From the sequence record KP869100: 64,000 nucleotides of DNA. One strand, written 5' to 3'. Position 1 is the stretch's first letter, and each line of letters begins with the position of its first letter. The stretch comes from Escherichia typing phage 1. Below the pieces are notes generated by a model. That model saw only the letters and a program-made list of their open reading frames with translations. It was not told the origin of the DNA and did not search any database. This document shows positions 17,484 through 17,549 of this stretch, one piece after another. The position numbers and the translations under genes are program-made.

Positions 17484-17524
17484 TAAGTATTTATAAGCCT
17501 ACACCTTGTCAAGTACTTTGTCAA
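17484..17524 (-). promoter_or_regulatory. sigma70-like promoter for the leftward operon, with tandem -35 boxes
   Basis: minus strand reads TTGACA-aagtac-TTGACA, then a 17-nt spacer, then TACTTA. Confidence 0.5.
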
Positions 17525-17549
17525 CAACTTTTTTAACTTGCAATAGTTC

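What the first reader, a model, noticed from the sequence alone, without database searches (positions are those of the whole stretch)
17484..17525. Conserved 22-nt tandem TTGACA element at the two divergent junctions
CCTTGTCAAGTACTTTGTCAAC (17504-17525) recurs as CCTTGTCAAGTACATTGTCAAC at 63658-63679, and a related double TGTCAA arrangement occurs at 28503-28523. On the minus strand these are two -35-like TTGACA boxes 6 nt apart. At 17.5 kb one box is correctly spaced from a TACTTA -10. This could be tandem early promoters or a shared operator for a phage regulator.
Basis: seen in the sequence. Interest (0 to 1): 0.4.

Follow-up and report, generated by a model that had tools for sequence, protein, structure and literature searches.

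The report
Doubled -35 box phage promoters
Three promoters of this Felix O1-like phage each carry two perfect copies of the host polymerase's TTGACA recognition box, an arrangement conserved across several phage genera, not annotated in the records examined, not described in the papers I could search, and of unknown regulatory purpose.

Summary
The window is a Felixounavirus, read in reverse orientation to Felix O1 and wV8. TTGACA-N6/7-TTGACA occurs exactly three times, all on the minus strand and all intergenic, at 17507-17524, 63661-63678 and 28504-28522.

The same three sites carry two perfect hexamers in Suspvirus and Mooglevirus. Two sites do in a Hafnia phage and one in an Erwinia phage. 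The bases between the boxes vary freely in sequence and in length (4-7 nt).

The upstream box always lies 17-18 nt from a TAnnnT hexamer. It belongs to a large phage promoter family, AAAAAG-N3-4-TTGACA-N17/18-TAnnnT. More distant relatives have a single box with the same geometry at the two junctions. So the upstream box is a sigma-70 -35 element. The downstream box is an extra, separately selected element inside the spacer.

Each site is followed by an AT-rich array of CTTAAAAG-like 8-mers. Two sites head the two long minus-strand operons. The third sits upstream of a gene that has its own promoter.

What reads the second box is unknown: sigma region 4 itself or a regulator. This is a new variant of a known kind, of moderate interest.

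The parts
17519..17524 (-). Site A distal TTGACA; inferred functional -35 hexamer of the minus-strand promoter (Felix O1 'P41')
   Evidence: It lies 17 nt upstream of TAGGCT. The hexamer and this geometry are kept in Felix O1, SUSP1, Mordin, ESh21 and Hafnia Zyzzx. The Felix O1 paper called this box P41.
17507..17512 (-). Site A proximal TTGACA; extra -35-like hexamer inside the promoter spacer
   Evidence: It is invariant in all lineages, while the 5-6 nt separating it from the distal box vary. It has no conserved -10 partner. The ASO1B record annotates it as a promoter by pattern match only.
17496..17501 (-). Site A -10 hexamer TAGGCT (TAnnnT class)
   Evidence: TAGGCT, TAGCCT, TAGTGT or TACTCT sits at distal box +17 in five genera.
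17525..17536 (-). A-tract (TTAAAAAAGTTG) directly upstream of the distal box; resembles a proximal UP-element subsite
   Evidence: AAAAAG-N3-4-TTGACA recurs at many promoters of this phage. UP-element function is inferred, not tested.
17375..17489 (-). Site A leader: AT-rich array of CTTAAAAG-like 8-mers plus the dyad AGATATC-N6-GATATCT (17423-17442), ending at the gp41 start codon (17374)
   Evidence: conserved across four genera; 72% AT, z 3.1; RNA fold z -2.7.
17550..17578 (+). Divergent plus-strand promoter TTGACT-N17-TACCAT for the gene 40-24 block
   Evidence: It is identical in SUSP1, Mordin and ESh21.
63673..63678 (-). Site B distal TTGACA; inferred -35 hexamer
   Evidence: It lies 18 nt upstream of TAATCT, which is preceded by TGn. 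It is kept in SUSP1, Mordin and ESh21 at 18 nt and in Hafnia at 17 nt.
63661..63666 (-). Site B proximal TTGACA in the spacer
   Evidence: It is invariant in 21 Felixounavirus loci, where the 3 central spacer bases vary, and across genera.
63649..63654 (-). Site B -10 hexamer TAATCT
   Evidence: The equivalent hexamers are TAGTCT in Mordin and TATTGT in Hafnia.
63482..63642 (-). Site B leader: array of CTTAAAAG-like 8-mers at roughly 12-bp intervals, hairpin or dyad at 63526-63542, ending at the gp97 start codon (63481)
   Evidence: 63490-63609 is the least stable 120-bp duplex in the window (81% AT, z 4.6); compensatory change in the hairpin.
63680..63708 (+). Divergent DNA polymerase promoter TTGCTT-N17-TAATGT, its -35 one base from the distal box
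   Evidence: It is conserved as TTGCTT-N17-TA(A/G)(T/G)GT in four lineages.
28517..28522 (-). Site C distal TTGACA; inferred -35 hexamer, preceded by AAAAAAGTG
   Evidence: It lies 17 nt upstream of TAACTT, identically in Mordin and ESh19.
28504..28509 (-). Site C proximal TTGACA, 7 nt from the distal box and 4 nt from the -10
28494..28499 (-). Site C -10 hexamer TAACTT
28427..28487 (-). Site C array of CTAAAAGG, CTTAATAG, CTTTATAG and CTTAAAAA 8-mers
   Evidence: conserved in Mooglevirus; RNA fold z -3.2.
28398..28426 (-). Ordinary promoter TTGCAA-N17-TATAGT with the standard early-gene leader for the 176-aa gene (28333-27803); it lies downstream of the site C module
   Evidence: The downstream gene therefore does not need the doubled-box promoter.

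Best explanation
Each element is the -35 region of a host sigma-70 promoter that fires on the minus strand, which is the forward strand of Felix O1. The upstream TTGACA is the working -35 hexamer. It is often preceded by an A-tract. A minimal -10 hexamer TAnnnT follows after 17 nt (sites A and C) or 18 nt (site B). The downstream TTGACA lies inside the spacer at about -24 to -17. It is a second, independently selected cis element that marks a small promoter class of three per genome. Two of these promoters head the two long minus-strand operons. One runs gp41, gp42, the tRNAs and the structural genes. The other runs gp97 through the replication and nucleotide-metabolism genes to rII and the small early genes. 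The third stands upstream of a gene that already has its own promoter. All three are followed by an AT-rich array of CTTAAAAG-like 8-mers.

Shown: the anatomy, its conservation, membership of the upstream box in the phage's promoter family, and the absence of a -10 partner for the downstream box.

Inferred: the second box is read either by sigma-70 region 4 itself or by a factor with the same specificity. That reading gives these three weak -10 promoters a regulation distinct from the ordinary early promoters, consistent with the 25-min expression peak reported for the genes behind sites A and B in Felix O1.
For: 1. There are exactly three tandem sites per genome, at orthologous places, in this phage (window plus the rest of wV8) and in Mordin.

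2. All 28 non-redundant hexamers are exactly TTGACA. They come from Felixounavirus, Suspvirus, two Mooglevirus lineages, Hafnia Zyzzx and Erwinia vEam_PM_27. The inter-box spacer varies in sequence and in length: N4, N5, N6 and N7.

3. The distance from the distal box to TAnnnT stays at 17 or 18 nt whatever the inter-box length, so the proximal box 'floats' 4-7 nt from the -10.

4. Single-box relatives have TTGACA-N16-18-TAnnnT at the same two junctions: Erwinia site A TAGAAT and site B TACATT, Pectobacterium site A TACCCT and site B TAGGCT.

5. In the window, 23 of 87 TTGACA hexamers have TAnnnT at +17/18 against a background of 4.9%. Most are on the minus strand and many follow AAAAAG-N3-4. 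The three distal boxes are in this set and the three proximal boxes are not.

6. The three -10 hexamers match TATAAT at only 3 of 6 positions, among the weakest of the family.

7. Felix O1 RT-PCR shows ORFs 41, 42 and 96-99 peaking at 25 min and the small early genes at 5 min.

8. Ordinary promoters in the same genome tolerate TTTACA, TTGCAA, TTGACT and TTGCTT as -35 hexamers. The strict invariance of the doubled boxes across genera therefore points to an invariant reader, and host sigma region 4 is such a reader.
Against: - There is no transcription start-site, footprint or reporter data for any Felix O1-like phage in the searchable literature.
- The -10 hexamers are weak (3 of 6) and fell below the consensus scan threshold.
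- RNA polymerase is not known to read bases at -24 to -17, so the second box has no established reader.
- The Felix O1 timing data are end-point RT-PCR and are noisy.
- Hafnia Zyzzx lacks a site C equivalent, and the Erwinia phage has the doubled box only at a site C-like position. The 'class of three' is therefore not universal.
- A regulator that mimics sigma specificity cannot be excluded.
Confidence: 0.6

Rival explanations
1. Two overlapping tandem promoters: each TTGACA is the -35 of its own promoter, giving two starts 12-13 nt apart.
For: At site A the proximal box is 17 nt from TACTTA. The ASO1B record annotates the proximal box as a promoter and the Felix O1 paper annotates the distal box as one.
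Against: TACTTA lacks the key T at position 6 and becomes ACACTT in SUSP1 and ESh21. At sites B and C the hexamers 16-18 nt after the proximal box are AAGTGG and GGGGGT. The Hafnia sites have none either.
Confidence: 0.08
2. Operator for a phage-encoded regulator that binds both direct repeats. It would cover the -35 and spacer and so repress the three promoters, or replace sigma region 4 and activate them.
For: Direct repeats overlap a promoter core at three co-oriented sites. The genes behind sites A and B peak late relative to early genes. An XRE-type HTH protein (wV8 gp91) is encoded in the DNA polymerase operon, which diverges from site B. It is present in Felixounavirus, Suspvirus and Mooglevirus and absent from the Erwinia and Pectobacterium phages, which have single boxes at A and B.
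Against: Box spacing varies from 10 to 13 bp centre to centre, which a rigid dimer would not tolerate. The HTH protein is missing from Hafnia Zyzzx, which has doubled boxes. The Erwinia phage has a doubled box without it. XRE proteins usually bind inverted repeats. The site sequence has not drifted at all between genera, which is unusual for a phage protein and its operator. The 20 small early proteins scanned had PHROG matches of unknown function or to metabolic enzymes only, none a DNA-binding or regulatory family.
Confidence: 0.17
3. The whole module (promoter plus AT-rich array) is a transcription-activated replication origin or another non-coding DNA element. The doubled box would serve to load polymerase there rather than to express the downstream genes.
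For: The site B leader is the least stable duplex of the 64-kb window and adjoins the DNA polymerase gene; the site A leader ranks sixth. At site C, and at Hafnia site B, the downstream gene has its own canonical promoter after the array. In the Erwinia phage the doubled-box promoter points into a gene-poor array and terminal-repeat region, whose only annotated plus-strand ORF is a small one at 641-850. Genes diverge from sites A and B. From my own knowledge, the T4 oriF and oriG origins and the T7 primary origin combine promoters with an AT-rich unwinding segment.
Against: GC skew simply follows gene orientation and is uninformative. AT-rich leaders are common. No origin has been mapped in this group. 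Single-box relatives carry the same arrays, so the second box is not needed for an array. Three origins would be unusual.
Confidence: 0.15
4. Plus-strand reading: TTGTCAA-N5-TTGTCAA is a Pho-box-like or other response-regulator site that activates the plus-strand genes, namely DNA polymerase and the gene 40 block.
For: The half-site TGTCA resembles the Pho box CTGTCAT (my own knowledge). At site B a TATAAT lies 9 nt after the second repeat.
Against: That TATAAT is not conserved: it is GAAGAT, GAAACT and CATAAA in relatives. The conserved DNA polymerase promoter is TTGCTT-N17-TAATGT, which does not need the boxes. At site A the boxes lie 25 bp upstream of the plus-strand -35, a different geometry. 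At site C there is no plus-strand gene. The repeat period of 10-13 bp is not the fixed 11 bp of a Pho box.
Confidence: 0.03
5. A chance or neutral duplication with no function.
For: None beyond the general frequency of TTGACA in AT-rich phage DNA: 87 copies in the window.
Against: Three sites against 0.26 expected. All are intergenic, on the same strand and at orthologous positions across genera with about 45-60% protein identity. The hexamers are invariant while the bases between them change.
Confidence: 0.01

Closest known systems
Canonical sigma-70 promoters of virulent coliphages (consensus -35, 17-bp spacer, upstream A-tract or UP element)
   Same: The distal box, the 17-18 nt spacer, TAnnnT with the critical A2 and T6, an upstream A-tract at most sites, and orientation towards downstream genes. 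The phage has more than 20 such promoters.
   Different: A second perfect -35 hexamer is embedded in the spacer and is conserved as strictly as the first. The -10 hexamers are unusually weak. An 8-mer array follows.
Lambdoid late-promoter (PR') antitermination cassettes
   Same: In those cassettes extra cis elements sit within or next to the promoter core. The lambda Q-binding element lies between -35 and -10 (my own knowledge). The Q21 binding element is two tandem direct repeats (PMC9388147). Sigma region 4 is repositioned onto DNA close to the -10-like pause element. A -35-like element induces an early pause at +14/+15 at phage 82 PR' (PMC3326312). Here the second box is 10-13 bp downstream of the first, within the range in which region 4 is still attached. 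The promoters head long operons that contain many intrinsic terminators.
   Different: No conserved -10-like pause element lies downstream of the promoters. The eight proteins flanking the three sites had no Pfam match to a Q family, and no gene of the annotated Mordin or GEP101 records is named an antiterminator; the full proteome was not scanned. There are three sites per genome rather than one. No antitermination has been shown.
T4 middle promoters (MotA box plus TAnnnT -10, with sigma appropriation by AsiA and MotA)
   Same: A minimal TAnnnT -10 is combined with a second upstream element whose position is slightly flexible. The timing appears to be middle-mode. Felix O1-like phages share rIIA, rIIB and other T4-like genes. 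These comparisons rest on my own knowledge of T4.
   Different: The box sequence is TTGACA, not TGCTTtA. It lies near -21, not -30. A perfect -35 is retained rather than replaced. No motA or asiA homologue is annotated and the Felix O1 paper reports none apparent; PHROG scans of 20 early proteins gave no regulatory family.
Lambda CII / P22 C1 activator sites (TTGC-N6-TTGC flanking a -35)
   Same: Direct repeats beginning with TTG overlap the -35 region of phage promoters. The motif is mentioned in PMC4837284.
   Different: The CII repeat period is fixed at 10 bp and the repeats straddle a poor -35. Here the period is 10-13 bp, one repeat is itself a perfect -35 and the other lies in the spacer. 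This is a virulent phage with no CII-like gene annotated.
Pho box and other OmpR/PhoB-type tandem direct repeats
   Same: Two direct repeats containing TGTCA/TGACA lie next to a -10 element.
   Different: The orientation that fits all three sites is the opposite strand. The spacing is variable rather than 11 bp. A normal -35 is present.

Membership tests
Sigma-70 (housekeeping) promoter | A -35 hexamer close to TTGACA | tested here: met
   The distal boxes at 17519-17524, 63673-63678 and 28517-28522 are exact TTGACA.
Sigma-70 (housekeeping) promoter | A -10 hexamer with A at position 2 and T at position 6, 17 +/- 1 nt downstream of the -35 | tested here: met
   TAGGCT at +17, TAATCT at +18 and TAACTT at +17. 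The geometry is kept in five other lineages despite inter-box lengths of 4-7 nt. Only 3 of 6 positions match TATAAT, so the simple consensus scan did not list them.
Sigma-70 (housekeeping) promoter | Orientation towards a downstream transcription unit | tested here: met
   All three face minus-strand genes with start codons at 17374, 63481 and 28333.
Sigma-70 (housekeeping) promoter | Transcription start about 7 nt downstream of the -10, dependent on the holoenzyme | not testable with these tools
   No start-site data for this phage group were found.
Tandem (double) promoters | Each -35 has its own correctly spaced -10 | tested here: not met
   The proximal boxes have no TAnnnT at +16-18. TACTTA at site A lacks T6 and is not conserved.
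Operator of a dimeric phage repressor or activator | Two half-sites at a fixed spacing | tested here: not met
   Centre-to-centre spacing is 10, 11, 12 and 13 bp among sites and lineages.
Operator of a dimeric phage repressor or activator | A cognate DNA-binding protein encoded by every phage that carries the site | tested here: not met
   This was tested only for the one annotated HTH protein (wV8 gp91). It is absent from the Hafnia and Erwinia phages, which have doubled boxes. Other unknown proteins were not excluded.
T4-type middle promoter | MotA box (a/t)(a/t)(a/t)TGCTTtA centred at -30 that replaces the -35 | tested here: not met
   The sequence at -35 to -17 is TTGACA-N4-7-TTGACA, and a perfect -35 is retained.
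Lambdoid Q / PR' cassette | A sigma-dependent pause element (-10-like) in the initially transcribed region | tested here: not met
   No conserved TAnnnT or ANNNT element at a fixed position downstream of the -10 is shared by sites A, B and C.
Lambdoid Q / PR' cassette | A Q-family antiterminator gene | tested here: inconclusive
   There were no Pfam hits for the genes flanking the sites. The PHROG hits of 20 early proteins are of unknown function or metabolic enzymes. The full proteome was not scanned.
Pho box | Two CTGTCAT repeats with an 11-bp period, 10 bp upstream of a -10, on the coding strand | tested here: not met
   The period is 10-13 bp. The plus-strand geometry differs between sites A and B, and there is no plus-strand gene at site C.
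Promoter-dependent phage replication origin (T4 oriF/oriG, T7 primary origin type) | A promoter followed by an easily unwound AT-rich segment | tested here: met
   The site B leader has the lowest duplex stability in the window (z 4.6). Site A has z 3.1 and site C z 2.4.
Promoter-dependent phage replication origin (T4 oriF/oriG, T7 primary origin type) | Replication initiates there | not testable with these tools
   GC skew only mirrors gene orientation.

The most novel reading that the evidence does not exclude
The second TTGACA may be a re-docking site for sigma-70 region 4. After initiation from the distal-box promoter, the polymerase moves 10-13 bp while sigma is still attached. Region 4 then rebinds the downstream hexamer. 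This would hold an early elongation complex at the three promoters that head the long, terminator-studded operons and the non-coding arrays. Such a held complex could be the loading point for an unrecognised phage antitermination or polymerase-modifying factor. It could alternatively serve for primer or R-loop formation in the AT-rich array. Either role would explain the so-far unexplained temporal control and terminator read-through in Felix O1-like phages.
Probability: 0.12. Interest if true: 0.7.

Novelty: new variant of a known kind. Interest (0 to 1): 0.4.

Why it matters
Felix O1-like phages are widely used for typing and biocontrol. The Felix O1 genome paper states that their temporal transcription programme and their read-through of many terminators are unexplained, and that no polymerase-modifying protein is apparent. 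A three-member promoter class has a strictly conserved extra -35 hexamer. It sits at the heads of the two large operons and in front of non-coding arrays, which gives a concrete, mutable handle on that problem. More generally, a perfect -35 hexamer under selection inside a promoter spacer is not part of the textbook promoter. It could reveal either a new use of sigma region 4 or a new regulator. If it turns out only to tune promoter strength, the finding is of local interest.

Tried and rejected
- **Plus-strand reading (Pho-box-like, or an activator site for DNA polymerase).** Rejected. The TATAAT at 63688 is not conserved. The conserved plus-strand promoters do not use the boxes. Site C has no plus-strand gene.
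- **Proximal box as a -35.** Rejected. It has no conserved -10 partner.
Its subthreshold Sigma70_r4 Pfam hit (22 bits against a cut-off of 24.1) looked suggestive. However, the protein is a generic HTH_3 and is absent from the Hafnia and Erwinia phages that have doubled boxes.
- **PHROG scans of 20 small early proteins and Pfam scans of the flanking genes.** No regulator was found.
- **Rfam search of the leaders.** Nothing was found.
- **GC skew as an origin indicator.** It only follows gene orientation.
- **Literature searches for transcriptomes or start sites of Felix O1-like phages.** None were found. The wV8 paper does not discuss promoters. wV8, KhF3 and the typing phage 15 record do not annotate the element.
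- **Phyletic profiling for a cofactor.** Abandoned once the Erwinia phage proved to have a doubled-box promoter too.
- **boxA/boxB-like reading of the site B leader.** The CTCTTAA motif is not conserved between genera.
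Full report
**Identity and orientation of the window**

The window is 100% identical over the tested stretches to E. coli O157 typing phage 15, and about 99% identical to wV8 and Felix O1 (genus Felixounavirus, subfamily Ounavirinae). It runs in reverse orientation to the Felix O1 and wV8 numbering. The minus strand of the window is therefore the Felix O1 forward strand.

The window contains four gene blocks:
- 1-17374 (-): gp41, gp42, 26 tRNA genes, terminase and structural genes.
- 17624-25513 (+): the gene 40-24 block, including the lysin.
- 27155-63481 (-): gp97 through the replication, nucleotide-metabolism and rII genes to a block of small early genes.
- From 63739 (+): the DNA polymerase gene.

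The Felix O1 paper describes the same four 'transcriptons'. It says that divergent promoters are expected at the 40/41 and 96/97 junctions. It found only one candidate there, P41, and states that temporal regulation and terminator read-through are not understood.

**Check of the observation**

A third double TGTCAA lies at 28504-28522. TGTCAA-N4-10-TGTCAA occurs three times against 0.26 expected. Adding the 25 kb of wV8 that the window does not cover adds no further site.

On the minus strand the three sites read as follows.

| Site | Distal box | Spacer | Proximal box | Gap | -10 |
|---|---|---|---|---|---|
| A | TTGACA | AAGTAC | TTGACA | AGGTG | TAGGCT |
| B | TTGACA | ATGTAC | TTGACA | AGGTGT | TAATCT |
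| C | TTGACA | ATACCCA | TTGACA | TTGG | TAACTT |

**Comparative anatomy**

I collected the orthologous regions from other Ounavirinae.

Mordin (Mooglevirus, 78-85% DNA identity in these regions) has exactly three N6/N7 tandem sites genome-wide, at the same three places. One unrelated N3 pair also occurs, inside the annotated ribonucleotide reductase alpha-subunit gene.

Other lineages, in the same layout:

| Phage and site | Distal box | Spacer | Proximal box | Gap | -10 |
|---|---|---|---|---|---|
| SUSP1 A | TTGACA | AATGAC | TTGACA | AGCTG | TAGCCT |
| SUSP1 B | TTGACA | ATTCAC | TTGACA | AGGTGT | TAATCT |
| Mordin A | TTGACA | TTCCTC | TTGACA | ACGTG | TAGCCT |
| Mordin B | TTGACA | AACCAC | TTGACA | AGGTGG | TAGTCT |
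| Mordin C | TTGACA | ATGCCCC | TTGACA | AGTG | TAACTT |
| ESh21 A | TTGACA | AGGGGA | TTGACA | AGATG | TAGTGT |
| ESh21 B | TTGACA | AAGCAC | TTGACA | AGGTGT | TAATCT |
| ESh19 C | TTGACA | ATGCCCC | TTGACA | AGTG | TAACTT |
| Hafnia Zyzzx A | TTGACA | AACAC | TTGACA | TACCCT | TACTCT |
| Hafnia Zyzzx B | TTGACA | GAAC | TTGACA | AGGGGTT | TATTGT |

Among 21 Felixounavirus contigs retrieved through the neighbouring protein, not through the motif, both hexamers are invariant. The only variable columns within the element are three spacer bases.

Three conclusions follow:
- The conserved units are the two hexamers, not a 22-nt block.
- The distance from the distal hexamer to a TAnnnT hexamer is fixed at 17 or 18 nt.
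- The proximal hexamer floats, 4-7 nt from either neighbour. The two gaps together with the 6-nt proximal box always fill a 17- or 18-nt spacer.

**Single-box relatives**

More distant relatives have one box with the same geometry at the same junctions:
- Erwinia vEam_PM_27 and ST-3, site B: TTGACA-N17-TACATT.
- Erwinia vEam_PM_27 and phi63_307, site A: TTGACA-N16-TAGAAT.
- Pectobacterium Wc4-1, site A: TTGACA-N18-TACCCT.
- Pectobacterium Arno162, site B: TTGACA-N17-TAGGCT.

The Erwinia phage nevertheless has one doubled-box promoter of the same design, TTGACA-TTCCAC-TTGACA-GGGGC-TAAAGT, at position 83709. It lies after the last early gene and points into a gene-poor array and terminal-repeat region. 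The only annotated plus-strand ORF there is a small one at 641-850.

Hafnia Zyzzx has no site C equivalent. It does have several TTTACA-N4-TTGACA pairs at other promoters, with the partner box either upstream or within the spacer.

**Why the distal box is a -35 element**

In the window, 23 of 87 TTGACA hexamers are followed by TAnnnT at +17 or +18, against a background of 4.9%. Nineteen of them are on the minus strand, and many are preceded by AAAAAG-N3-4. This defines a large family of host-type promoters, as previous annotators assumed.

The three distal boxes belong to this family. The three proximal boxes do not. The -10 hexamers of the three doubled promoters match TATAAT at only 3 of 6 positions, among the weakest in the family. 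This is why the consensus scan missed them.

**Surroundings of the three sites**

The divergent plus-strand promoters are separate and conserved:
- Site A: TTGACT-N17-TACCAT at 17550-17578, 25 bp from the distal box.
- Site B: TTGCTT-N17-TAATGT at 63680-63708. Its -35 is back-to-back with the distal box and one base away.

Downstream of each doubled promoter lies an AT-rich stretch of 100-170 bp. It carries CTTAAAAG, CTTAATAG, CTTTATAG and CTAAAAAG 8-mers at roughly 12-bp intervals. The site B stretch (63490-63609) is the least stable 120-bp duplex in the window (81% AT, z 4.6), and the site A stretch ranks sixth. As RNA these leaders fold better than shuffled controls, with z between -2.6 and -3.2. 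One hairpin in the site B leader shows compensatory changes. No Rfam family matches.

At site C, and at Hafnia site B, the array is followed by an ordinary strong promoter and the standard early-gene leader. The downstream gene therefore does not depend on the doubled promoter. Together with the Erwinia case, this suggests that the promoter-plus-array module may also have a non-coding role.

**Who reads the second box?**

RNA polymerase is not known to read bases at -24 to -17, so a separate reading event is needed. Two observations constrain it:
- The spacing to the distal box varies from 10 to 13 bp. This argues against a rigid dimer that binds both repeats.
- All 28 non-redundant hexamers are exactly the sigma-70 -35 consensus, in genera whose neighbouring proteins are only 45-60% identical. 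Ordinary -35 elements in the same genomes drift to TTTACA, TTGCAA, TTGACT and TTGCTT.

The most parsimonious invariant reader is host sigma region 4. There is precedent. At phage 82 PR' a -35-like element induces an early pause at +14/+15 through region 4, and this is possible only while the RNA is shorter than about 15 nt (PMC3326312). In lambda Q loading, region 4 is repositioned onto promoter-proximal DNA. The Q21 binding element is a pair of direct repeats (PMC9388147).

The 10-13-bp offset seen here fits that window. However, I found no conserved -10-like pause element and no Q-like gene. I therefore rate this only as the most novel reading that the evidence does not exclude.

A phage regulator remains possible. 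The one annotated HTH protein (wV8 gp91, an XRE type encoded in the DNA polymerase operon) is a poor candidate, because the Hafnia and Erwinia phages lack it. Twenty small early proteins gave only unknown-function or enzyme PHROG matches.

**Timing**

The only expression data are the Felix O1 RT-PCR results. ORFs 41, 42 and 96-99 peak at 25 min. The small early genes 13, 16, 20, 21 and 22 peak at 5 min. This agrees with the doubled-box promoters being regulated differently from the ordinary early promoters, but the assay is coarse.

**Comparison with known systems, and novelty**

The distal box with its -10 meets the sequence criteria of a sigma-70 promoter. The arrangement fails the defining features of tandem promoters, T4 MotA-dependent middle promoters, CII sites, Pho boxes and lambdoid Q cassettes (see the membership table). 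It shares one feature, a promoter followed by an unwinding-prone segment, with promoter-dependent phage origins.

The individual boxes at site A have each been called a putative promoter by pattern matching. I found no description or annotation of the conserved doubling, of its recurrence at three sites, or of its cross-genus conservation.

I classify it as a new variant of a known kind, of moderate interest. The anatomy is solid and the mechanism of the second box is open.

Noticed in passing
window 25600-27110: A 1.5-kb gene-free convergent junction is packed with CTGTTAAG, CTTGTTAG, CTTAAAAG and CTATAGAG 8-mers on the minus strand, spaced about 10-12 bp apart. The hexamers GTTAAG, TGTTAG and TTGTTA are 20-25 times enriched. 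In Erwinia phage vEam_PM_27 the equivalent array region contains the record's terminal repeat and is fed by a doubled-box promoter. The function is unknown; candidates are a binding array, an origin or a packaging region.
   Followed up: partly
window 63526-63542 and 17423-17442: Two conserved dyads or hairpins lie in the leaders. AACGTAT-TCT-ATACGTT in the site B leader shows a compensatory change on both arms in Mordin. AGATATC-N6-GATATCT in the site A leader is invariant in four lineages, representing three genera. They could be RNA hairpins or operators of a dimeric protein.
   Followed up: partly
window 11350-11891: The experimentally determined terminal repeat of UAB_Phi87 is 542 bp, identical at both ends of the record. 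It maps here, inside the tRNA cluster. In a unit-length linear genome, transcripts from the site A promoter would reach the DNA end after gp41, gp42 and most tRNA genes. The terminase and structural genes lie across the terminus. Their expression from that promoter would therefore need circular or concatemeric DNA.
   Followed up: partly
window 28900-33000 (-): The small early genes each have their own promoter (TTTACA or TTGACA, N17, then TATAGT, TAAAGT or TAAATT). These promoters often have a GGGGCTTA...TAAGCCCC hairpin spanning the spacer and the -10. A near-identical leader of about 55 nt follows, ending in CTAAACTGGAGATTC before the ATG. These correspond to the DR_2, DR_3 and DR_5 repeats annotated in wV8 and to the 14-bp repeats before ribosome-binding sites annotated in Mordin.
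   Followed up: no
window 15506-16921 (-): gp42 carries DUF2828 plus DUF7788; the Mordin record annotates its homologue as an RNA-binding protein with a von Willebrand factor type A domain and DUF2828. It lies immediately upstream of the 26-gene tRNA cluster and downstream of the site A promoter. gp41 is a DUF5681 protein.
   Followed up: no
window 63059-63481 compared with KP869113.1 80000-81115: The best-matching public record, typing phage 15 (a 'partial genome'), has 177 extra bases inside the gp97 gene relative to the window. The window's gp97 is intact and identical to that of wV8. This is probably an assembly artefact or an insertion in that record.
   Followed up: no
L042 (Hafnia phage Zyzzx) 55796, 81684, 39085 and 25239: This phage has several TTTACA-N4-TTGACA pairs, some at apparent promoters. 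The partner hexamer lies either upstream of the working -35 or within the spacer. Paired -35-like hexamers may therefore be a broader habit of this subfamily.
   Followed up: no
window 20311-20351 (+): CTGACA-N6-TTGACA-N17-TATCTT lies at the 3' end of the lysozyme gene, just before a terminator hairpin at 20355-20372. It is a one-mismatch tandem with the opposite geometry: the proximal box pairs with the -10. Its significance is unclear.
   Followed up: no
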